From IMG/VR virus record IMGVR_UViG_3300021959_007005: a DNA stretch of 64,000 nt. One strand, given 5' to 3'. Every line of letters begins with the position of its first letter. The stretch's first letter is position 1. Below are positions 12,762 to 62,637 of this stretch, in pieces. The notes beneath the pieces are model-generated. The model saw only the letters and a list, made by a program, of their open reading frames with translations. It had not been told where the DNA came from and made no database searches. Position numbers and translations under genes: made by a program. This stretch comes from a virus. Taxonomy: Duplodnaviria > Caudoviricetes.

Positions 12762-12799
12762 TTATTTTCCCTTACATATTAATATTTATTTAATAAAGA

Positions 12800-12830
12800 T
12801 TGACATCGTTATATACTACTGTTATAAATA
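12800..12830 (+). promoter_or_regulatory. ssrA promoter (sigma70 consensus whose -10 also matches T4-late TATAAATA)
   Basis: TTGACA-N17-TATAAA(TA). Confidence 0.75.
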
Positions 12831-12834
12831 ATAT

Positions 12835-12897
12835 TGTAAACGTTGAAGCAACGTGAACGCATACTGGACCGCGGGGCAGTACCGCGCATCTCCACCA
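12835..12897 (+). ncRNA. ssrA: tmRNA acceptor piece (permuted two-piece ssrA)
   Basis: T-arm CGCGG-GGCAGTA-CCGCG then CATCTCC-A-CCA; 5' end approximate. Confidence 0.92.
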
Positions 12898-12911
12898 TAA
12901 GGACATTGAGA

Positions 12912-13100
12912 ATGGAAATTATCTGGCACATACTATTAACAGTTTGTTCTGGCACAACCTGCTTAGAACAAGATGTACAACAGTTTGAAACTAAAGCACA
13001 GTGTAAAACTATGCTTGTAGAATATACAGAAATGCCAGCGGACGGACATTGGGATACAGTTGAATATATCTGTAAACCTTTAGATTCAGTGTCTTTATGA
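12912..13100 (+). CDS. 62-aa Cys-containing protein inside the tmRNA intervening segment
   Basis: AAGGA RBS directly after CCA; MEIIWHILLTVCSGTTC...C...ICKPLDSVSL; TGA ends 1 nt before the coding piece. Confidence 0.75.
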   Translation: MEIIWHILLTVCSGTTCLEQDVQQFETKAQCKTMLVEYTEMPADGHWDTVEYICKPLDSVSL

Positions 13101-13101
13101 T

Positions 13102-13268
13102 GGGGATGAAATAGGATCGACAGGTGTGGTAGTGAAGTGGAGTTTACCGGATGACTGCGTTATTGGTCAACATTTCTAAATGCAAACGCAAATAGAGCGC
13201 CAGAAATGGCATTAGCAGCCTAAGGGTATGTGGGGGCGGGTACTGCCTAGCAACAGAAGTGCCACTCT
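13102..13268 (+). ncRNA. ssrA: tmRNA coding piece (permuted two-piece ssrA), tag ANANRAPEMALAA at 13182-13223
   Basis: GGGGATGAAATAGGATCGAC pairs with CATCTCC with G3:U70; TAAAT-GCA resume; 3' GCAACAGAA motif; 3' end approximate. Confidence 0.93.
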
Positions 13269-13285
13269 AATGTAAAGGACATCTA

Positions 13286-14071
13286 ATGACAGAGAAATAT
13301 AAAATACAAATCGTTGCACCTGGTCGAACTGGCAGTACTTTTCTTCATCAAGTTTTAAGTGATGAATTGGTGGGCGATAGTGTATATCGTTTCAATGAGC
13401 CAATTGGAGTACCTTATGACGATCTACTATTAGGAGGAGAACTTTTCGACGAAGAGGATTTATCTGATGCACAATATGTTATTGAAAATTCAAAATTTTT
13501 CGATTCGTTAAACAGTGACAATGTAGTGGTAAAGAATGTAGTAGTGCCACTAAAAGAAATGAAAGACTCCCATCCTATTTTATGGGAAGAATACATAAAA
13601 CATAATTGGAATACTGTAATACTATATAGACAAGATCTTTTTTCTACAATAATTAGTTACTGTATAGCAGAATATAAAAATAAAAATGATGATGACATTA
13701 ATCATTTTCAAACTCATACTGCTAAACTAAGCAACCAACTTACATTTGATCAAGAATACTTTACTGAAAAGTTTATGTTCTATGTAGAACAATATAAGAT
13801 TCTTGTAGAGTTTATGAATGAATTTAAAAACCACATTGTATTAGCATATGAAGACTTTTCAGATGATCATGTTGATATTAAACGTAAAGTGCATGGGTTT
13901 GCAGATTTAAATAACGAAGATCAAGTACAACATGTTTTGACAAAAAATATTGATAATAAAGATATGATAGAGAACTATGAAGAATTACATACTTTATTTT
14001 TAACTTTAGTAGAAGAATTTATTGTTGATGGAATTGAAATATCTGAAGATGGAATGTTAAGTATAGACTAG
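13286..14071 (+). CDS. Sulfotransferase-like (Stf0-type) P-loop protein
   Basis: APGRTGSTFL, LYRQDLFSTIISY, LAYEDF. Confidence 0.5.
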   Translation: MTEKYKIQIVAPGRTGSTFLHQVLSDELVGDSVYRFNEPIGVPYDDLLLGGELFDEEDLSDAQYVIENSKFFDSLNSDNVVVKNVVVPLKEMKDSHPILWEEYIKHNWNTVILYRQDLFSTIISYCIAEYKNKNDDDINHFQTHTAKLSNQLTFDQEYFTEKFMFYVEQYKILVEFMNEFKNHIVLAYEDFSDDHVDIKRKVHGFADLNNEDQVQHVLTKNIDNKDMIENYEELHTLFLTLVEEFIVDGIEISEDGMLSID

Positions 14072-53587: not shown

Positions 53588-53918
53588 TGGGTGCAGTAGT
53601 TTACCAAGCACCTTAAATGTATCAACAAAACCAGTTACAAAGCCAATATTGGTATTGCCTGATGTTGACGAAGTATCAATGCGCCGCATTGAATGGATTG
53701 TTATTAATGAAGAAAATGTAGATGATGAGTTAGCTAAACTTAAAGAAAAAAACATTCCAACTGGTTTGTATGCATTAACTGGTCAAGGTTATGAAAATTT
53801 AGGTCTGAACTTTAGTGACATACGTGCTCTAGTACAACAACAGCAAGCAATTATTGTAGCATATAAAAATTATTATATTGAAGCAGAAGAAACTCTAGAC
53901 AACTCAGTAGCAAAGTAA
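53529..53918 (+). CDS. Putative o-spanin lipoprotein (Rz1-like)
   Basis: Lipobox LSGC; overlaps 3' end of previous gene; start re-called. Confidence 0.55.
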   Translation: MAYNLTKSVLGFGLVMTLLSGCSSLPSTLNVSTKPVTKPILVLPDVDEVSMRRIEWIVINEENVDDELAKLKEKNIPTGLYALTGQGYENLGLNFSDIRALVQQQQAIIVAYKNYYIEAEETLDNSVAK

Positions 53919-54769
53919 TGTCAACAAAACCATATAAAAATTCAGATCCATATGATCTATTAGGTGTTGACAAAACTGCTACTGATAGTGATATTAAAAG
54001 TGCGTATAGAAAATTAGCAAAAAAATGGCATCCTGATACTCCTAATGGAGATGCTAAAAAGTTTAATGAAGTAAATACTGCATATGAATCAATTAAAGAT
54101 GTCGATGCTAGGTTCCAACAAGAACAACAACAGCATACATCTAACCCACATAACTGGCAACATAAAGCAGAGTCTAATCCATTCAATAATCACAACACTC
54201 CTCCTGGATTTGATAGTATGTTTGATAGTATGTTTGGAAGACAGCAAAAATACCACCAACGTAATCAGGATGTAGAAATAACTGCACATGTAACATTAGA
54301 AGAAGTATTAAACGAATCTCAAAAAAACTTAAATATAAATCTTATGAATGGTAATTTTAGAACTGTTACTATACACATTCCACGTGGTGTACATGAAGGA
54401 TCTAAGATAAGATACAATAGTATGGGTGATGATTCCGTTCCTGGACCACCTGGTAATTTAATCGTAACTTATCGATTAAAAAAACATAATAGGTTTTGGA
54501 CAGATGGTTACAATTTAAATGAAAAAATTAATATAAGTTTAAAAACTGCATTATTTGGTGGTGACATCCCTATTAGCGGAATAGACGGAAGTCAATTTAA
54601 ATTAAATATAAAGGCGGGTACTAGCCCAAATACAAAACTTAGAATACCACAACATGGGTTACCACAACCCAATCAACCAAATGGTGATTTAATATTACAT
54701 ATTGATGTTTCTATACCACCATTAACAGTCGACAATTTAAATACCCCAATTGGGGAATTATTAGAATAA
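53918..54769 (+). CDS. dnaJ: DnaJ/CbpA-type co-chaperone (no zinc finger)
   Basis: PYDLLGV, AYRKLAKKWHPD, C-terminal DnaJ domain, GDLIL. Confidence 0.9.
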   Translation: MSTKPYKNSDPYDLLGVDKTATDSDIKSAYRKLAKKWHPDTPNGDAKKFNEVNTAYESIKDVDARFQQEQQQHTSNPHNWQHKAESNPFNNHNTPPGFDSMFDSMFGRQQKYHQRNQDVEITAHVTLEEVLNESQKNLNINLMNGNFRTVTIHIPRGVHEGSKIRYNSMGDDSVPGPPGNLIVTYRLKKHNRFWTDGYNLNEKINISLKTALFGGDIPISGIDGSQFKLNIKAGTSPNTKLRIPQHGLPQPNQPNGDLILHIDVSIPPLTVDNLNTPIGELLE

Positions 54770-54788
54770 AGTAATAGGAGTAAGTTTA

Positions 54789-57032
54789 TTGTCTAATGAA
54801 GATAAGATTGAAAAAATCGTAAACAAGACATTTATGTTGAGTAAAGATTACCGTCACCACTATGTAACTATTGAGCATTTACTAGCTATTATTCTTGATT
54901 TAGATGAAGTGAAGGATATTGTTTCTGATTTTAGTGTAGATCCATCTGATATAAGCAGAGAAGTATACGATCATTTAGCAGATTCAGTTGATAGTTATCC
55001 AGATGCTACAGAACAAGAACCCAAAAAGACTGTCATGTTGGAGCGAGTATTCCATAGAGCATTTACGCAAGCATTGTTCAATGGCCGTAATAACTTAGAC
55101 CCCAGAGATTTACTGATTAGTATTTTATCAGAGCAACAAACGCCAAGTGCTTTTATTTTACAAAAATACGGTATTGACAGAGATGCAGTTAGTAACTATC
55201 TTCAGGATATTAATCGTATTCGAGAGCAAAATATTAATCAAGATTCATCACCAACAATTACAAAAGCTGACAAGATATTACGTAAATTTTGTGAAAATTT
55301 AAATGAATCAGCAGCTAGTGGTAAAATAGATGCTATTGTTGGTAGAGAAGAAGAATTAGCCGAAACAGTACAGACCCTTGCTCGTCGTAAAAAGAATAAT
55401 GTTGTACTTGTTGGTGATAGTGGTGTTGGCAAAACTGCCATTGCCGAAGGACTTGCTTATTTAATCAATGAAGGAAGTGTTCCTGATCTAATACAAGGAC
55501 ATATTGTTTATAGTTTAGATTTAAGTGCTTTATTAGCTGGTACTAAATTTAGAGGAGACTTTGAAGACCGACTTAAAGAAGTACTAGATGTATTAGAAAA
55601 AAGAGACGATGCTATTTTGTTTATTGATGAAATACATATGATTATGGGAGCAGGCAATAGTGGATCCGGTGCAATGGATGTTGCTAATATGTTAAAGCCA
55701 GCACTACAAAAAGGAAAGTTGCGTTGTCTTGGTAGTACAACCTATGATGAATACCGCCAACATTTTGAAAAAGATAAGGCACTTGTACGTAGATTTCACA
55801 AAGTAGACGTACCTGAGCCAAGTGTGGCAGATGCAAAGCGTATAATTAATAACAGCATATATCCATATGAAGCACACCACGAGATTGCATTTACTAAGAA
55901 CGCACTTGATGGTGCAGTAGACTTAACTGCACAATATTGGCATAATAAATTTCTTCCAGATAAAGCATTTGATGTAATTGATAGTGCGGCGGCTCGTCAA
56001 CGGTTACTTCCCAAAGACGATCGTAAGAGTATTATTGACTTAGATGAAATTAGATTTGAGGTTGCTAAACTAACAAGGATACCAATTGACCAATTAGTAT
56101 TAACCAAAGATAGTGAGTACAAAAAAGAAAAGCCTGTAGATATTGAAAAGCAATTAAATCTTAAAGTGTTTGGCCAATCAGAAGCTATCACTAAGTTAGC
56201 TGATAGTATTTACATTGCGAAAGCAGGTCTTAAAGCAGAAGATAAACCAATTGGTAGTTACTTGTTTAGTGGACCAACGGGTGTTGGTAAAACAGAAACA
56301 GCAAAGCAGCTCAGTAATACCATGGGAATGGAATTATTACGTTTTGATATGAGTGAATATCAAGAAAGACATACAGTATCAAAACTTATCGGCAGTCCTC
56401 CAGGCTACGTTGGATTTAGTGAAGGCGGTTCAGGTAGTGGTCTGTTAATTAATAAACTAGAAGAAAATCCAAATAGTATTTTACTATTAGATGAGATTGA
56501 AAAGGCTCATCCAGACGTTAGTAACGTATTGTTACAACTAATGGATAATGGAATGGTTACATCAAGTGACGGCAAAACAGTCAGTGCTAGAAATTGTATT
56601 ATTATACTTACAAGTAATTTAGGTGCTGCTGATAGCGAAAAGAACTTAATTGGCTTTGGTGCTGGAAAAAATGAGTCAGCAGCAGGTGAGGCAGTTAAAA
56701 GTTTCTTTAGTCCAGAGTTTAGAAATAGACTTGATGCAATTGTGCAATTTAAAAAATTAGACAGAACATTGATGAAAAATGTTACAGTTAAGTTTATTAC
56801 TGAACTAGAAGCAATGTTAACTCCACGGGAGATTGTACTATTATATGATGATAAAGTAATTGAATGGCTAACTGACAATGGATTCAGTGAAACAATGGGC
56901 GCAAGGCCGATGGCACGTGTCATTAATCAACAAATCAAAAAACCGCTTGCTAAAGAATTATTATTTGGTAGTGACATTAAAACAGTAACACTGGAAATAT
57001 TAGATGGCAGTATTAACATTACAACAAATTAA
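54789..57032 (+). CDS. clpA: ClpA-type AAA+ unfoldase
   Basis: Clp N-domain, GDSGVGKT, FIDEIH, GPTGVGKT, RFDMSEYQE, LLDEIEKAH, GARP. Confidence 0.92.
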   Translation: MSNEDKIEKIVNKTFMLSKDYRHHYVTIEHLLAIILDLDEVKDIVSDFSVDPSDISREVYDHLADSVDSYPDATEQEPKKTVMLERVFHRAFTQALFNGRNNLDPRDLLISILSEQQTPSAFILQKYGIDRDAVSNYLQDINRIREQNINQDSSPTITKADKILRKFCENLNESAASGKIDAIVGREEELAETVQTLARRKKNNVVLVGDSGVGKTAIAEGLAYLINEGSVPDLIQGHIVYSLDLSALLAGTKFRGDFEDRLKEVLDVLEKRDDAILFIDEIHMIMGAGNSGSGAMDVANMLKPALQKGKLRCLGSTTYDEYRQHFEKDKALVRRFHKVDVPEPSVADAKRIINNSIYPYEAHHEIAFTKNALDGAVDLTAQYWHNKFLPDKAFDVIDSAAARQRLLPKDDRKSIIDLDEIRFEVAKLTRIPIDQLVLTKDSEYKKEKPVDIEKQLNLKVFGQSEAITKLADSIYIAKAGLKAEDKPIGSYLFSGPTGVGKTETAKQLSNTMGMELLRFDMSEYQERHTVSKLIGSPPGYVGFSEGGSGSGLLINKLEENPNSILLLDEIEKAHPDVSNVLLQLMDNGMVTSSDGKTVSARNCIIILTSNLGAADSEKNLIGFGAGKNESAAGEAVKSFFSPEFRNRLDAIVQFKKLDRTLMKNVTVKFITELEAMLTPREIVLLYDDKVIEWLTDNGFSETMGARPMARVINQQIKKPLAKELLFGSDIKTVTLEILDGSINITTN

Positions 57033-58199: not shown

Positions 58200-58865
58200 A
58201 TGTCTGTTCAAAAATTAGTTACTAGTCTTAATAAAAAACTTGATGGTCCTGATTATGTAGGCGAAAAGAATAGACTATTTTTTGATCTTGCAACTAGATC
58301 ATTTAGACTCAGTGACGGCGTGACACCAGGCGGTATAGTATTACAAGGCGGTGGTGGCGGAGGCGGTGGTGGTTTAACTGGTATTACTGATTTTGCAACT
58401 AGCAGTGTTGTTGAGCTTACTGATACTCAAATAACAATTACAGGTGCTGCACTATTAGAATCTGACGAGACTATTGATCCTGTTACAAAATATGAATATG
58501 TGTTATACGGCACAACAGTTAATAACACAGTATCAGAACTTTATAGAGATTCACTCAATAATAAAATTATCTTAGATAATAATACAACTTATTTTTATGA
58601 AATTGATGTAATAGGCAGAGGTAATGCAGGAACTAATCATGCCGCCATACAATTTACTGGTGCAATCAATGTTGACAATTATGGTAGTATGAGTAAAATT
58701 AATGAACAAAAAACTACTATTTCATCTGGACCAGGATTTGATTTAGATGCTATAATCGGCCTAACCTCTAATGATACTTCACTAAATGTTTCAGGCAGTG
58801 GAAGAGCTTCAAGTACTATTAGATGGACGGCACTTGTAAAATTAATTGAAGTTAAACAGATTTAA
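58200..58865 (+). CDS. Virion fibre/structural protein, Mtd-N-like N-terminus with poly-Gly hinge
   Basis: GEKNRLFFD...LSDGVTPGG, GGGGGGGGG. Confidence 0.6.
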   Translation: MSVQKLVTSLNKKLDGPDYVGEKNRLFFDLATRSFRLSDGVTPGGIVLQGGGGGGGGGLTGITDFATSSVVELTDTQITITGAALLESDETIDPVTKYEYVLYGTTVNNTVSELYRDSLNNKIILDNNTTYFYEIDVIGRGNAGTNHAAIQFTGAINVDNYGSMSKINEQKTTISSGPGFDLDAIIGLTSNDTSLNVSGSGRASSTIRWTALVKLIEVKQI

Positions 58866-58935
58866 ACACATAAAATAGATAAATAAATATATAGGTACAC
58901 AATATAGTGTAATGAATTTTTAGAGGAGACCAGAA

Positions 58936-59190
58936 ATGGCTTTAACAACAAACGCAGCAACCAAAGCAGGCAACGGCTTAGGTTCAGTAACACAAATCGT
59001 TTCAGCAGCACCATCAGATCAAGCGGCATTAGATGCATTTGAAAAAGCAGTAGGCGCAGCAGGACACACAATTGCAGGCGTCGACGGCGCACACGGCGGA
59101 ACAATGCACTTTGCAATCCAAGGTGGCGGTGCAGTAGCTAACCCAACAGGCGCAGAAGCAACAGCAATTGTTGCAACATTTGAAGACTAA
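58936..59190 (+). CDS. Small Ala/Gly-rich late (likely virion) protein
   Basis: TAAATA, GAGGAG RBS, own terminator at about 59211-59238. Confidence 0.65.
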   Translation: MALTTNAATKAGNGLGSVTQIVSAAPSDQAALDAFEKAVGAAGHTIAGVDGAHGGTMHFAIQGGGAVANPTGAEATAIVATFED

Positions 59191-59274
59191 GTTTTAGTAA
59201 TACTAAAATAAAAGCAGTGTTTCGGCACTGCTTTTTTTATGACTAAATACAGGTAGAGTATATAGGAGATTAAA

Positions 59275-59622
59275 ATGGTAGCAAGAGCAACAAACAATTT
59301 AAATGCATTTAGCCACACAAATGGAATTGCCGAAGATGTAGAAATGTTTACAATTGATGGTGGTGCAACACTGGCAAATGAAACTAATCCAGGCGAAGCT
59401 ATGGACGCAATTACAAGATGTATTGAAGAATTTTCAAATATTATTGCAGTAGGAGTAGAAGATACTGCTGGTGCATTTCGTATTATGTTACATGGTGGTA
59501 AATGGAAAGCGGCGACATTACAGGACGCACTAAGGGTATTAGGACCAACAGCAAACGGACTAAACGTTGGATCAAATAATTATGACTTATCAGGTGCAAC
59601 AGTAGTCGATTTTGAATTCTAA
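59275..59622 (+). CDS. Late (likely virion) protein
   Basis: TAAATA at 59244, AGGAG RBS, terminator at about 59646-59672. Confidence 0.65.
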   Translation: MVARATNNLNAFSHTNGIAEDVEMFTIDGGATLANETNPGEAMDAITRCIEEFSNIIAVGVEDTAGAFRIMLHGGKWKAATLQDALRVLGPTANGLNVGSNNYDLSGATVVDFEF

Positions 59623-61037: not shown

Positions 61038-61595
61038 ATGCAAGATTTTTATATACTACAAAGAACAGATAAGCCACTTAATGCTGAAGTAATTCAGCGT
61101 TGGTACTTAACTGTTGACATGCTTACACCAGAAGATGTTATTATGAGTGATGACGAAACTAATAGTTTTGTTATGGCTACACAAGCTGATTCGTATTTGT
61201 ACTTAATACCGCTAGTAAGACATCTTACTGCTAACGAAGCAGAAGTAATTGTTGAAGGGTATATGAGAATTGCAGATCATGATTTTCAAATAGAATCAAG
61301 TAACGTATATCGTGTAGATGCAGACTTTGGTCATCCTTTTGATTATGACATTGATTTAGACGAAGGTGCTCGTAGTATATTAGAAGATACATATTCAAGA
61401 CAGCAACATAATGCTTGGATACAAGACAAGCAACACAAAGGCTGGCGCTACGGGTTAAATTTAAGTATGCAAGAAAAAACTCATCCAGCAATGCGTCCCT
61501 GGGACGATTTACCAGAGTCTTACAGAAAACAGCCAAGTGCAGATAATAAACAACTAGTTGATTTTTATGCTAGTAATGTAAGCAAATTTAAATAA
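61038..61595 (+). CDS. Protein with C-terminal RyR domain
   Basis: HNAWIQDKQHKGWRYG...KTHPAMRPWDDLPE. Confidence 0.75.
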   Translation: MQDFYILQRTDKPLNAEVIQRWYLTVDMLTPEDVIMSDDETNSFVMATQADSYLYLIPLVRHLTANEAEVIVEGYMRIADHDFQIESSNVYRVDADFGHPFDYDIDLDEGARSILEDTYSRQQHNAWIQDKQHKGWRYGLNLSMQEKTHPAMRPWDDLPESYRKQPSADNKQLVDFYASNVSKFK

Positions 61596-61605
61596 CAATC
61601 TCCAC

Positions 61606-61703
61606 TAAATACGTGTGTCCAATAGTACTCATGAGAGGACTTATGCTGCACCACAGCGTAGCCCATAGAACGGGCGTAGGACTTCTTTTTAAGGAGAAAA
61701 CAA
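61606..61703 (+). promoter_or_regulatory. Late promoter plus structured leader, copy 1
   Basis: Near-identical to 62084-62182, with covarying stem. Confidence 0.8.
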
Positions 61704-62075
61704 ATGGGAAGACCACTAAACAAAAGACACTTTGGCAATCCAGGTAATGATGGGTTCCAGATCAGGGTAACAGCAGACGTAGGTGCTGGCGCAAGCGCAG
61801 GTCATATTGTAAAGCAAACAGGCAGCAAGCGTTTTCTATGTGATGTAGGCGGAAGTGAAGCAGTTTGTTCATTAGGAGCAGGCGCACCAGGCGTAGGCGA
61901 AGTGAGAATTAACGTAACAGACAGTGCAGCAGGTACTTATGATGTTACTAAAATCTCAGGTAGAACATGTACAGTTAAACCACAGACAGGTACACAATTT
62001 GCTCAAGGCGATAAAGTTCCTTGGAACAAAATTGGCGCCGTGGTTAATGAAAGTGTTGTAATCGACTTTCTATAA
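61704..62075 (+). CDS. MGRPLNKR-family late protein, paralogue 1
   Basis: Shares KQ.GSKRFL and V.KISGRTCTV...GTQFA with paralogue 2. Confidence 0.75.
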   Translation: MGRPLNKRHFGNPGNDGFQIRVTADVGAGASAGHIVKQTGSKRFLCDVGGSEAVCSLGAGAPGVGEVRINVTDSAAGTYDVTKISGRTCTVKPQTGTQFAQGDKVPWNKIGAVVNESVVIDFL

Positions 62076-62083
62076 TTGCAGCA

Positions 62084-62182
62084 TAAATACGTATGTCCAA
62101 TAGTACTCATGAGAGGACTTATGCTGTACCCACAGCGTAGCGACTAGAACTCGCATAGGACTTCTTTTTAAGGAGAAAACAA
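62084..62182 (+). promoter_or_regulatory. Late promoter plus structured leader, copy 2
   Basis: See copy 1. Confidence 0.8.
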
Positions 62183-62572
62183 ATGGGAAGACCACTAAAC
62201 AAGAGAAATTTCGGCGCACGAGCAGACGCTGGTGCCCAAATTGCACCAGCCGCATACACTACCCAACTATTTGGTAATGCTCATATAATCAAGCAAAAAG
62301 GTAGTAAGCGTTTTCTAGTAGCAACTGCGCTGTCTGGGGTCGATCAACCAGACCAAATTTGCAAACTAGTAACGGATGTACCAGCTGCTACTGGTGAAAT
62401 GGTTATCAAATGTAAAGATAGTGTGAACGGAACTTACTTTGTAAGTAAAATTTCTGGTAGAACTTGCACAGTAGTAGCAGATTCAGGAACACAGTTTGCA
62501 TCAAAAACAAAAGTACAGTGGAACCTCAGTGCCGCTGAAGCTGGCGTATCAGTTATACTAGACCTAGCATAA
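62183..62572 (+). CDS. MGRPLNKR-family late protein, paralogue 2
   Basis: See paralogue 1. Confidence 0.75.
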   Translation: MGRPLNKRNFGARADAGAQIAPAAYTTQLFGNAHIIKQKGSKRFLVATALSGVDQPDQICKLVTDVPAATGEMVIKCKDSVNGTYFVSKISGRTCTVVADSGTQFASKTKVQWNLSAAEAGVSVILDLA

Positions 62573-62590: not shown

Positions 62591-62637
62591 CCCTTAGTAA
62601 ACACATAAATACTTTAAAGTTTACTAAGGGTTTTTTT
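62591..62637 (+). terminator. Terminator whose loop contains a TAAATA late-promoter motif
   Basis: CCCTTAGTAAAC-N16-GTTTACTAAGGG-T7. Confidence 0.7.

What the first reader, a model, noticed from the sequence alone, without database searches (positions are those of the whole stretch)
61606..62572. Duplicated ~100-nt late leader with compensatory mutations: candidate new cis-regulatory RNA
Seen: two paralogous genes with clearly diverged proteins keep almost identical leaders running from TAAATA to ATG. The differences fall in loops or are compensatory: GCCC-ATAGAAC-GGGC versus GCGA-CTAGAAC-TCGC (two double changes, TAGAAC loop kept). TATGCTG/CAGCGTA has a variable loop. CTTATGC can alternatively pair with GCGTAGG or GCATAGG. 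CTTCTT-TTT-AAGGAG sequesters the Shine-Dalgarno. Inference: this is a selected, possibly two-state RNA (riboswitch or protein-binding translational operator) controlling late, likely structural, proteins. I do not recognise it as a named motif.
Basis: partly seen in the sequence, partly recalled or inferred. Interest (0 to 1): 0.85.

Follow-up and report, generated by a model that had tools for sequence, protein, structure and literature searches.

The report
Known phage leader RNA, start-codon pseudoknot
The two near-identical leaders are copies of an already named but functionally unexplained RNA motif (Rfam freshwater-2), sitting in front of two virion-protein genes of an uncultured marine giant phage, and comparison of about 180 relatives suggests that a loop of the motif pairs with the start codon.

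Summary
Two leaders are 91% identical in front of genes that are only 62% identical (proteins 47%), and stem P3 carries two compensatory double changes.

The motif is not new. Both copies match Rfam RF02980, freshwater-2 RNA, at 66 and 72 bits against a cut-off of 49.9. Its function has not been established as far as I could find.

- The motif is phage-borne.
- It begins just after a conserved TAAATA box that resembles a T4 late promoter.
- In every real copy examined it precedes one protein family, starting MGRP or MAR. The family is two small beta-barrels and is homologous to a mass-spectrometry-confirmed virion protein of Pseudomonas phage PA5oct.
- In 22 of 58 sampled loci the gene directly follows the major head protein gene.
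- The P2 loop carries YCCA, complementary to UGGX (the UG of AUG plus two bases). When codon 2 is GGN, Y is C or U and never G. When it is GCN, Y is mostly G and never C.

This points to a 4-bp pseudoknot that occludes the start codon, so probably translational control.

The effector is unknown; I think the encoded protein most likely.

The parts
61606..61611 (+). TAAATA box of leader 1, a promoter-like element resembling the T4 late promoter
   Evidence: TAAATA lies within 50 nt upstream in 115 of 117 homologous leaders, 12-42 nt before UUAUGC. It is also upstream of family genes that lack the RNA motif, in PA5oct, Atu_ph07, Phosso and L011/L015/L026. Promoter function is inferred.
61625..61640 (+). 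P1 hairpin of leader 1: GUACUC-AUGA-GAGGAC, with one A.G mismatch
   Evidence: Rfam alignment. P1 is present in 93 of 99 leaders that have at least 18 nt between the box and P2, against 32% of shuffles. Counting all 115 leaders with a box, 95 have such a hairpin, in 80 distinct sequences. P1 is absent when the box is 12-16 nt from P2.
61642..61660 (+). P2 hairpin of leader 1: UAUGCUG / CAGCGUA with loop CACCA. Loop bases CCA (61651-61653) are the 5' half of the candidate pseudoknot
   Evidence: P2 99.7% paired; the sixth pair occurs as GC 45, AU 29, UA 14. Pseudoknot evidence. In this copy only 3 of the 4 pairs can form (ACCA against UGGG).
61661..61675 (+). P3 hairpin of leader 1: GCCC / GGGC with conserved loop AUAGAAC
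   Evidence: 97.9% paired; all four pairs show changes on both sides.
61676..61696 (+). Optional tail GUAGGACUUCUUUUU followed by the Shine-Dalgarno sequence AAGGAG (61691-61696). GGAC (61679-61682) can pair with GUCC (61617-61620). CUUCUU (61682-61687) can pair with AAGGAG
   Evidence: Minimum-energy folds. The tail is present in 40 of 117 homologues. Neither helix is supported by comparison across homologues.
61705..61708 (+). UGGG: the U and G of the start codon plus the first two bases of codon 2. This is the 3' half of the candidate pseudoknot of leader 1
   Evidence: Covariation of the second base of codon 2 with the loop base Y across 181 leaders.
61704..62075 (+). Gene 1, 123 aa, MGRPLNKR... 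Two small beta-barrels; virion-associated family
   Evidence: (pLDDT 90.8).
62084..62089 (+). TAAATA box of leader 2, beginning 9 nt after the stop codon of gene 1 (eight bases between)
62103..62118 (+). P1 hairpin of leader 2
   Evidence: Rfam match 62103-62185, 71.7 bits.
62120..62139 (+). P2 hairpin of leader 2 with loop UACCCA. CCCA (62129-62132) is the 5' half of the candidate pseudoknot
62140..62154 (+). P3 hairpin of leader 2: GCGA / UCGC with loop CUAGAAC
62155..62175 (+). Tail AUAGGACUUCUUUUU and Shine-Dalgarno sequence AAGGAG of leader 2
62184..62187 (+). UGGG, the 3' half of the candidate pseudoknot of leader 2. All four pairs to CCCA can form
62183..62572 (+). Gene 2, 129 aa, MGRPLNKR..., a paralogue of gene 1 (47% identical)
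62591..62637 (+). Terminator-like hairpin after gene 2: a 12-bp stem followed by U7
   Evidence: -18 kcal/mol, z -3.6. The consensus scan missed it because its loop is 16 nt.

Best explanation
**Shown**
- Both leaders are copies of the known freshwater-2 RNA (Rfam RF02980).
- They fill the 5' untranslated regions of two tandem paralogous genes in an uncultured marine jumbo phage.
- Each leader starts a few bases after a conserved TAAATA box.
- The downstream protein family begins MGRP or MAR, is modelled as two small beta-barrels, and is homologous to a virion protein of phage PA5oct.

**Inferred from covariation**
- Besides the Rfam hairpins P1 to P3, the 3' part of the P2 loop (5'-YCCR-3') pairs with 5'-UGGX-3'. 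That is the U and G of the start codon plus the first two bases of codon 2. The result is a 4-bp pseudoknot that covers the start codon.

**Inferred mechanism**
- The folded leader lowers or gates translation initiation of a late virion protein. A trans-acting factor probably stabilises or releases the pseudoknot.
- My preferred candidate is the encoded protein itself when it is not assembled into capsids. Its synthesis would then track capsid assembly. This would work like the S15 and S4 leader pseudoknots, or like phage coat-protein operators.
For: **Family membership.** Rfam matches of 66.4 and 71.7 bits, cut-off 49.9, full model length 1-84.

**Structure.** P2 and P3 covary on 114 and on 93 leaders. 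P1 is present in 93 of 99 long leaders, against 32% of shuffles.

**Pseudoknot.**
- With codon 2 = GGN (134 leaders), the loop base Y is C 97, U 7, A 14, G 0, none 16.
- With codon 2 = GCN (47 leaders), Y is G 32, U 3, A 4, C 0, none 8. Fisher p = 2e-28, not corrected for relatedness.
- Of 18 edge-disjoint pairs on the protein tree, 11 change in the same direction, 0 in the opposite direction and 7 show no change. Sign test p = 0.001.
- No real copy has codon 2 starting with A, C or U.

**Promoter box.** Present in 115 of 117 leaders, and also at family genes that lack the motif.

**Protein.**
- AlphaFold2 model with pLDDT 90.8 shows two SH3/Tudor-like barrels.
- Profile comparison with the N-terminus of PA5oct EST35_0383 (annotated 'structural protein, ESI-MS/MS') gives probability 95.8%, E 7e-9.
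- The upstream neighbour is the major head protein in 22 of 58 loci.

**Single gene family.** Every real copy of the motif examined precedes this family.
Against: - The pseudoknot is only 4 bp and does not extend further.
- 30 of 134 GGN leaders and 15 of 47 GCN leaders lack a full complement. Window leader 1 has only 3 pairs. L010 has GCCA facing UGGG.
- On well-supported tree branches there are only 5 independent pairs (about 3 to 4 in the same direction, 0 opposite), which is not significant.
- The column-based count on the MAFFT alignment gives only 78% pairing for the pseudoknot, because the alignment splits it across two registers.
- UGG never varies, so three of the four pairs carry no covariation.
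- No experiment exists. Binding of the protein to its own mRNA is pure inference.
- Members of the family in isolated phages do without the motif.
- I could not check whether the original description already drew this pseudoknot, because the supplement is not held.
Confidence: 0.55

Rival explanations
1. Constitutive leader with no dedicated effector. The 5'-terminal hairpins protect a strongly expressed late mRNA from 5'-end-dependent decay. The weak pseudoknot simply sets a fixed translation rate, or makes it depend on temperature or folding kinetics.
For: P1 (or P2 where P1 is absent) begins within a few bases of the presumed transcript start. P1 and the tail are optional modules. Family genes work without the motif in PA5oct, Atu_ph07 and Phosso. 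The Shine-Dalgarno sequence and spacing are near-optimal in all copies.
Against: The paired bases UAUGC/GCGUA and the P3 loop UAGAAC are conserved in sequence in the Rfam consensus. Mere hairpin stability does not require that. In my own sets these bases were fixed by the search patterns, so those sets cannot test the point. Strict restriction to one protein family is not expected for a general stabiliser.
Confidence: 0.2
2. Operator for another protein, either a phage-encoded translational regulator or nuclease, or a host protein, rather than for the product of the downstream gene.
For: Sequence-conserved stem and loop bases suggest a protein contact surface. The motif occurs in phages of very different genome sizes, from contigs of tens of kilobases to over 300 kb. 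That would fit a widely shared partner.
Against: No co-occurring regulator gene was identified. Neighbouring genes are mostly the major head protein and unknown families. The only gene invariably linked to the motif is the one it precedes.
Confidence: 0.13
3. Metabolite-binding riboswitch in which the ligand stabilises or breaks the start-codon pseudoknot.
For: It is a compact, highly conserved junction with a pseudoknot onto the ribosome-binding region, as in the SAM-II and preQ1 classes (established knowledge). In related phages, glutamine riboswitches and manA RNAs lie in the same late region.
Against: Only one downstream gene family is involved, and it is a virion protein with no metabolic link. 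Known riboswitch classes usually control several gene families of one pathway. P1 is dispensable and the core is only two short hairpins.
Confidence: 0.1
4. No function. The similarity of the two leaders reflects only a recent duplication or gene conversion.
For: The first 24 coding nucleotides are also identical between the copies. Gene conversion of the 5' region cannot be excluded for this pair.
Against: The same motif with covarying stems stands upstream of about 180 distinct homologous genes on different phage contigs. It reaches the Rfam cut-off.
Confidence: 0.02

Closest known systems
freshwater-2 RNA motif (Rfam RF02980; from the 224-motif survey, Weinberg et al. 2017, PMC5737381)
   Same: Same family. 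Both window copies match the full model: P1, P2 with UUAUGC/GCGUA, P3 with the UAGAAC loop, AAGGAG and AUG. Both score above the curated cut-off.
   Different: - The Rfam model ends at the G of AUG, so it cannot hold the four-pair loop-to-UGGX pseudoknot proposed here.
- The copies here come from a marine or estuarine jumbo phage, not fresh water.
I could not read the original supplement.
Autogenous translational operators with a pseudoknot over the start site: E. coli rpsO (S15) leader and alpha-operon (S4) leader. This is my knowledge of the literature, not tested here
   Same: A leader pseudoknot includes the initiation codon region. One leader type is tied to one protein family. The encoded protein is a structural component that is consumed by assembly.
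   Different: There is no sequence or structural homology. Protein binding has not been shown. Here the pseudoknot is 4 bp and formed by a hairpin loop.
Phage structural or DNA-binding proteins that repress translation by binding an RNA element: MS2/PP7 coat-protein operator hairpin, T4 gene 32 leader pseudoknot, P22 scaffolding-protein autoregulation. Literature knowledge
   Same: A virion or assembly protein doubles as a translational repressor. The RNA element lies at or near a start codon.
   Different: The MS2 coat protein represses another gene, the replicase. The gene 32 pseudoknot lies far upstream of the ribosome-binding site. No relation in fold or sequence.
T4-type late promoter TATAAATA, recognised by gp55 (literature knowledge)
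   Same: A TAAATA core, usually (G/C)ATAAATAC, with no -35 element, upstream of virion genes. It is also present at homologous genes of the T4-core-bearing jumbo phage Atu_ph07 (PMC6102473).
   Different: The first T of TATAAATA is not conserved. No gp55 homologue was looked for and no transcript start was mapped.
PA5oct EST35_0383 (326 aa structural protein confirmed by ESI-MS/MS), with Atu_ph07 AUZ95257 and the Phosso XYS97586 homologue
   Same: The N-terminal ~110 residues are homologous to the window proteins (profile probability 95.8%). They share the MGRP start and a TAAATA box upstream.
   Different: They carry long C-terminal extensions and short unstructured leaders without freshwater-2.

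Membership tests
Rfam RF02980 freshwater-2 RNA | Covariance-model score at or above the curated gathering score (49.9 bits) over the full model | tested here: met
   66.4 bits (61625-61706) and 71.7 bits (62103-62185), model positions 1-84 of 84.
Rfam RF02980 freshwater-2 RNA | Three consecutive hairpins with conserved UUAUGC...GCGUA in P2 and a UAGAAC loop in P3, followed by AAGGAG and AUG | tested here: met
   All are present in both copies. P2 and P3 covary in homologues.
Rfam RF02980 freshwater-2 RNA | Position directly upstream of a protein-coding gene (cis-regulatory type) | tested here: met
   Both copies end at the ATG of MGRPLNKR genes. Nearly all of 144 pattern matches do likewise.
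Metabolite riboswitch | Specific binding of a small molecule that changes the fold | not testable with these tools
   Needs in-line probing or ITC.
Metabolite riboswitch | Association with genes of one metabolic or transport pathway, usually several families | tested here: not met
   Only one downstream family, a virion-associated beta-barrel protein.
Autogenous translational operator (S15, S4 or gp32 type) | RNA structure that includes or occludes the initiation region | tested here: met
   The candidate pseudoknot YCCR:UGGX covers the UG of AUG and is supported by covariation. It has not been probed experimentally.
Autogenous translational operator (S15, S4 or gp32 type) | The encoded protein binds its own leader and represses translation | not testable with these tools
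   The only support is strict linkage of the motif to one family, plus conserved basic residues (R3, K42 nearly invariant; K7, R8, K37, R43, R87 in the consensus; K83 invariant).
T4-type late promoter | TATAAATA-like -10 element without a -35 element, upstream of late or virion genes | tested here: inconclusive
   TAAATA is in 115 of 117 leaders at 12-42 nt from P2. The exact octamer ATAAATAC is not enriched in the window overall (8 found, 6.1 expected).
T4-type late promoter | A gp55-type sigma factor in the genome, and late timing of the transcript | not tested
   No whole genome is held for the window. The RNA runs are contigs only.
MGRP virion-protein family (PA5oct EST35_0383 N-terminal domain) | Detectable homology of the ~110-residue N-terminal two-barrel domain | tested here: met
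   Profile comparison probability 95.8%, E 7.4e-9, 107 columns. Structural matches to Atu_ph07 proteins.
MGRP virion-protein family (PA5oct EST35_0383 N-terminal domain) | Presence in the virion | not testable with these tools
   Shown by ESI-MS/MS only for the PA5oct homologue, according to the GenBank note (PMC7318152).

The most novel reading that the evidence does not exclude
Freshwater-2 is a self-regulating translational operator of a capsid-associated protein. Unassembled MGRP protein, made of two small beta-barrels with conserved basic residues, would bind the P2/P3 core. That binding would lock the loop-to-start-codon pseudoknot, so that synthesis of this decoration-type protein is matched to capsid production. 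The pseudoknot itself would be a structural feature missing from the Rfam model, which stops at the AUG.
Probability: 0.25. Interest if true: 0.7.

Novelty: new member of a known kind. Interest (0 to 1): 0.45.

Why it matters
As far as I could find, freshwater-2 has no assigned function, host or gene context in the literature I could search. This window and its relatives give it all of that context.
- It is phage-borne.
- It fills the 5' UTR behind a promoter-like box that resembles a late promoter.
- It is tied to one virion-protein family that often sits next to the major head protein gene.
- It probably folds onto its own start codon.

Together these turn an unexplained motif into a testable case of translational control of a phage structural protein. 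A few reporter constructs and one binding assay would test it. For genome annotation it also matters that gene callers sometimes extend these genes upstream through the leader.

Tried and rejected
**Close relatives among isolated phages.** Megablast of 10 kb, tblastn of both proteins, and blastn of three different leaders against 50,697 GenBank phage records found none. The only real protein hits were distant homologues without the motif (Phosso, then Atu_ph07 and PA5oct via Phosso). A 20-nt match in Synechococcus phage ACG-2014i is a chance match inside purM.

**Shine-Dalgarno sequestration.** Predicted pairing of GGAG is 0.48 in tail-bearing leaders, 0.48 with the tail shuffled, and 0.37 in tail-less leaders. 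There is no evidence that the tail was selected for this.

It is not conserved.

**Outer helix GUCC/GGAC closing the junction.** It is in the minimum-energy fold of both window copies. In 38 tail-bearing homologues that have a clear GGAC or GGGC, it is 4 bp in 7, 3 bp in 25 and absent in 6, with no covariation. It remains undecided.

**Extending the pseudoknot to a fifth pair.** No.

**Other second codons.** None were found.

**Transcript ends from metatranscriptomes.** The runs are held only as contigs, and those contigs break at the duplicated leader. They give no information on 5' ends.

**Fold of the protein.** There is no significant match in the PDB: Foldseek best E 0.03, VIA-align Z at most 4.7, and only a generic SH3/Tudor/KOW barrel. 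Atlas leads to cement and head-fibre families are below a trustworthy score.

**Leaderless transcripts.** The idea that TAAATA boxes 4-5 nt before an ATG mark leaderless mRNAs was dropped after reading the sequence.

**Literature.** A text search for 'freshwater-2' found no RNA paper. The 2017 paper does not name the motif in its main text, and its supplement is not held.
Full report
**1. What is there**

Two tandem genes lie on the + strand:
- 61704-62075, 123 aa
- 62183-62572, 129 aa

Both begin MGRPLNKR. Each is preceded by a leader of about 98 nt that starts with TAAATA (61606-61611 and 62084-62089).

The leaders are far more alike than the genes:
- Leaders: 89/98 identical (91%).
- Coding sequence beyond the first 30 nt: 62% identical.
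- The 60 nt upstream of the boxes: 60% identical.
- Proteins: 47% identical.

- One base lies before the hairpins.
- The P2 loop is CACCA versus UACCCA.
- Two P3 pairs are changed on both sides, GCCC/GGGC versus GCGA/UCGC.
- The first loop base of P3 differs.
- One base after P3 differs.

A 12-bp hairpin with a U7 tail follows gene 2 at 62591-62637. There is no terminator between gene 1 and leader 2. The second TAAATA box begins 9 nt after the stop codon of gene 1.

**2. It is a named motif**

A scan of Rfam matches both leaders to RF02980, freshwater-2 RNA. This is a cis-regulatory candidate from the 224-motif survey (PMC5737381).
- Scores are 66.4 bits (61625-61706) and 71.7 bits (62103-62185). 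The gathering score is 49.9. Both cover the full model, positions 1-84.
- The model has three hairpins: P1; P2 with UUAUGC...GCGUA; and P3 with loop UAGAAC.
- These are followed by an unpaired stretch ending in AAGGAGAAAACAAAUG.

The claim that the motif is new therefore fails. I found no paper that assigns it a function. A full-text search for the name found nothing on RNA. The 2017 paper does not name the motif in its main text, and its supplement is not held.

**3. Source of the window**

No whole genome is held for the window. The window's own protein is recorded on a 305,533-bp contig. Other features of the window:
- about 36% G+C and many small open reading frames
- a permuted alpha-type tmRNA
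- a DnaJ protein and a ClpB-like ATPase
- an ATP-dependent DNA ligase and a ribose-phosphate pyrophosphokinase

It has no close relative among 50,697 GenBank phage records. I read it as an uncultured jumbo phage.

Its sequence is held by marine, estuary and seawater metagenomes and by metatranscriptomes, 18 studies in all. The RNA runs are contigs that break at the duplicated leader. They say nothing about transcript ends.

**4. Comparative set**

Two searches of IMG/VR supplied the first set:
- A protein-based search gave 27 loci.
- A DNA pattern for the conserved core gave 120 more stretches.

Together they gave 144 pattern matches. Nine had no ATGGG start within 90 nt. Six of those are chance matches, one runs off its contig, and two are real copies in front of family genes that start MAR. 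All the other matches are followed by a gene starting MGRP, or MGN in one case. After removing duplicates and matches too close to a contig end, 117 distinct leaders remained.

A scan of one genome for each of 185,579 prokaryote species found only three real copies. All three are on contigs of metagenome-assembled genomes: Haliscomenobacter EUL_031 (two copies) and Rickettsiales MED657. The motif behaves as a phage element.

**5. The hairpins are supported**
- On 114 leaders, RNAalifold recovers P2 and P3. The variable P2 pair occurs as GC 57, AU 29, UA 27. The three predicted P3 pairs occur in four to six pair types each.
- On a second set of 93 leaders, 93.3% of cells pair against 77.6% in shuffles, with 0 of 500 shuffles as high. 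P2 is 99.7% paired and P3 97.9%. All four P3 pairs change on both sides.
- The five conserved P2 pairs were fixed by my search pattern, but natural variants exist. UACGC replaces the U.G wobble with C-G in 7 rows. UAUGG.../...CCGUA swaps C-G for G-C in L010 and L013.
- MAFFT aligns P1 poorly, so I folded each sequence separately. A hairpin of at least 4 bp abutting P2 occurs in 93 of 99 leaders that have at least 18 nt between box and P2. Only 32% of shuffles meet the same criterion. Counting all 115 leaders with a box, 95 have such a hairpin, in 80 distinct sequences.
- Where the box is only 12-16 nt from P2, there is no P1. P1 is therefore optional.

**6. The TAAATA box**
- It is present within 50 nt upstream in 115 of 117 leaders, most often as GATAAATAC.
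- P1 usually starts 4-9 nt after it.
- It also stands upstream of family genes that have no freshwater-2 leader. Examples are L011, L015/L016 and L026/L027. Others are the isolated jumbo phages PA5oct, Atu_ph07 and Phosso.

By its likeness to the T4 late promoter TATAAATA (established knowledge), I read it as the promoter of these virion genes. Atu_ph07 carries homologues of 16 T4 core proteins (PMC6102473). On this reading the motif occupies essentially the whole 5' UTR. This is an inference: no transcript start was mapped and no gp55 homologue was sought. The octamer ATAAATAC is not enriched in the window as a whole.

**7. A pseudoknot onto the start codon**

The 3' part of the P2 loop nearly always reads YCCA or YCCG. 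This is complementary to UGGX, meaning the U and G of AUG plus the first two bases of codon 2.

A second pattern scan targeted leaders whose gene starts AUGGCA, that is Met-Ala. Over 181 distinct leaders:

| Codon 2 | n | Y = C | Y = U | Y = A | Y = G | no CCR |
|---|---|---|---|---|---|---|
| GGN | 134 | 97 | 7 | 14 | 0 | 16 |
| GCN | 47 | 0 | 3 | 4 | 32 | 8 |

- Fisher p = 2e-28, not corrected for relatedness.
- The switch recurs in several protein subfamilies. One example is MARPLKIAKAQA with loop UAAGCCA against MGRPLKIAKAQA with loop UCCCCG. Another is MASNLNKKYFGN with UAAGCCA against MGRPLNKKYFGN with AACCCCA, where the proteins are 87% identical.
- On a FastTree tree of residues 5-115, the codon base changes at least 18 times and the loop base 15 times. 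On well-supported branches there are only 5 independent pairs (about 3 to 4 in the same direction, 0 opposite), which is not significant.
- Using all branches, 18 edge-disjoint pairs give 11 changes in the same direction, 0 opposite and 7 unchanged. Sign test p = 0.001.
- No real copy has codon 2 beginning with A, C or U.
- The helix does not extend to a fifth pair.
- The tool's column-based count gives CG 50 and GC 10 at the Y-X pair. Overall pairing there is only 78%, because MAFFT puts CCAAC loops one column out of register.

The Rfam model ends at the G of AUG, so it cannot contain this four-pair helix.

In the window:
- Leader 2 can form all four pairs (CCCA 62129-62132 with UGGG 62184-62187).
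- Leader 1 can form only three (CCA 61651-61653 with UGG 61705-61707).

I put the reality of the pseudoknot at about 0.75.

**8.
- A pyrimidine-rich tail (AUNGGACUYCU) between P3 and the Shine-Dalgarno sequence is present in 40 of 117 leaders, including both window copies.
- The CUUCUU/AAGGAG hairpin is in the minimum-energy fold of both copies.
- Predicted Shine-Dalgarno pairing in tail-bearing leaders (0.48) equals that with the tail shuffled (0.48). Tail-less leaders give 0.37.
- The alternative helix CUUAUGC/GCRUAGG keeps all seven pairs in 9 of 40 tail-bearing leaders. Its central position pairs in 18 of 40.
- The outer helix GUCC/GGAC, which closes a multi-stem junction in the folds, was checked in 38 tail-bearing homologues that have a clear GGAC or GGGC. 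It is 4 bp in 7, 3 bp in 25 and absent in 6, with no covariation.

None of these is refuted for this phage. None is supported by comparison across homologues.

**9. The downstream protein**
- There is no trustworthy Pfam match and no PHROG match. The only Pfam row is far below its cut-off.
- There are 68 homologues in metagenome protein collections, all unnamed.
- AlphaFold2 on a 45-sequence alignment gives pLDDT 90.8. The model shows two small beta-barrels, roughly residues 4-69 and 69-123.
- PDB matches are generic Tudor/SH3/KOW barrels (Foldseek E 0.03; Z at most 4.7).
- Predicted viral structures match well, including two Atu_ph07 proteins.
- A weak tblastn hit led to Sinorhizobium phage Phosso. 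From there it led to Atu_ph07 and to PA5oct EST35_0383, which is annotated 'structural protein, ESI-MS/MS' (PMC7318152).
- A profile comparison of the window family with the PA5oct N-terminus gives probability 95.8%, E 7.4e-9, over 107 columns.
- In 22 of 58 sampled loci the gene directly upstream is a major head protein (phrog_138). Tail and baseplate genes also occur there.
- Downstream neighbours are mostly unknown families, with some virion proteins.

I conclude that these are late, virion-associated proteins, probably capsid-associated. That last step is an inference.

Conserved basic residues are compatible with nucleic-acid binding but prove nothing. In the alignment, R3 and K42 are nearly invariant and K83 is invariant. 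K7, R8, K37, R43 and R87 stand in the consensus.

**10. Mechanism**

Shown:
- membership of the known RNA family
- the covarying hairpins
- the conserved box
- the exclusive link to one virion-protein family

Inferred from covariation:
- a 4-bp pseudoknot over the start codon

Inferred beyond that:
- The folded leader limits initiation.
- A factor modulates it.

Because the motif is tied to a single protein family, I favour autogenous control by the encoded protein. The closest analogues are the S15 and S4 leader pseudoknots, and phage coat or scaffolding proteins that repress translation. I give this part about 0.25-0.3.

The rivals are:
- a constitutive stabilising and tuning leader (0.2)
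- another protein as effector (0.13)
- a metabolite riboswitch (0.1)
- no function (0.02)

**11. Verdict**
- The motif is already in Rfam. These are new members of a known family, not a new class.
- The added value is the biological context and a testable start-codon pseudoknot.

Noticed in passing
window 12785-13314 (+): A permuted, two-piece alpha-type tmRNA gene inside this phage window (Rfam RF01849 106 bits, RF04321 110 bits; ARAGORN tag peptide ANANRAPEMALAA). Related viral loci L011, L015 and L016 also carry such a tmRNA about 2 kb upstream of an MGRP gene that lacks the RNA motif. This hints at an alphaproteobacterial host.
   Followed up: partly
window 53918-57032 (+): The phage encodes a full DnaJ protein (J domain plus C-terminal domain) directly followed by a 747-aa ClpB/ClpA-like double AAA+ ATPase (phrog_4871, E 1e-249). 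The Atu_ph07 paper discusses phage-encoded Clp proteins.
   Followed up: no
window 61038-61595 (+): The gene just upstream of leader 1 encodes a 185-aa protein with a RyR domain (PF02026, E 6e-10).
   Followed up: no
L001 1855-1901 and 2139-2344; also L003, L004, L005: In related phage contigs, a glutamine riboswitch (in front of a 50-codon ORF) and a manA RNA lie between the major head protein gene and the freshwater-2/MGRP gene. That makes three different structured RNAs in a row within one late region.
   Followed up: partly
window 58870-59622 (+): Further small genes encode Ala/Gly-rich proteins (84 aa at 58936-59190; 115 aa at 59275-59622). Each has its own TAAATA box and they are separated by a terminator hairpin. 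They have different short leaders and do not match freshwater-2.
   Followed up: no
window 58200-58865 (+): A 221-aa protein with a run of nine glycines matches phrog_5449 'virion structural protein' (E 5e-9) and, weakly, the Sf6-type tail needle knob.
   Followed up: no
proteins P0017, P0031, P0054: Public gene calls for some family members start 15-20 codons too early (for example MLSYGDPNPVDLERQRRNK-MGRPLNKR). They translate the freshwater-2 leader as protein.
   Followed up: no
L404, L406 (Haliscomenobacter sp. EUL_031 MAG) and L405 (Rickettsiales MED657 MAG): The only copies of the motif found among species-representative prokaryote genomes lie on 54-183 kb contigs of metagenome-assembled genomes. 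These are probably phage contigs binned with the cells.
   Followed up: no
leaders, 4-6 nt after the TAAATA box: A conserved GU(U)C lies just downstream of the box. GUUC is complementary to GAAC of the invariant P3 loop. GUCC, as in the window, is complementary to the tail GGAC. It may simply be the transcription start region. No covariation is available to decide.
   Followed up: partly
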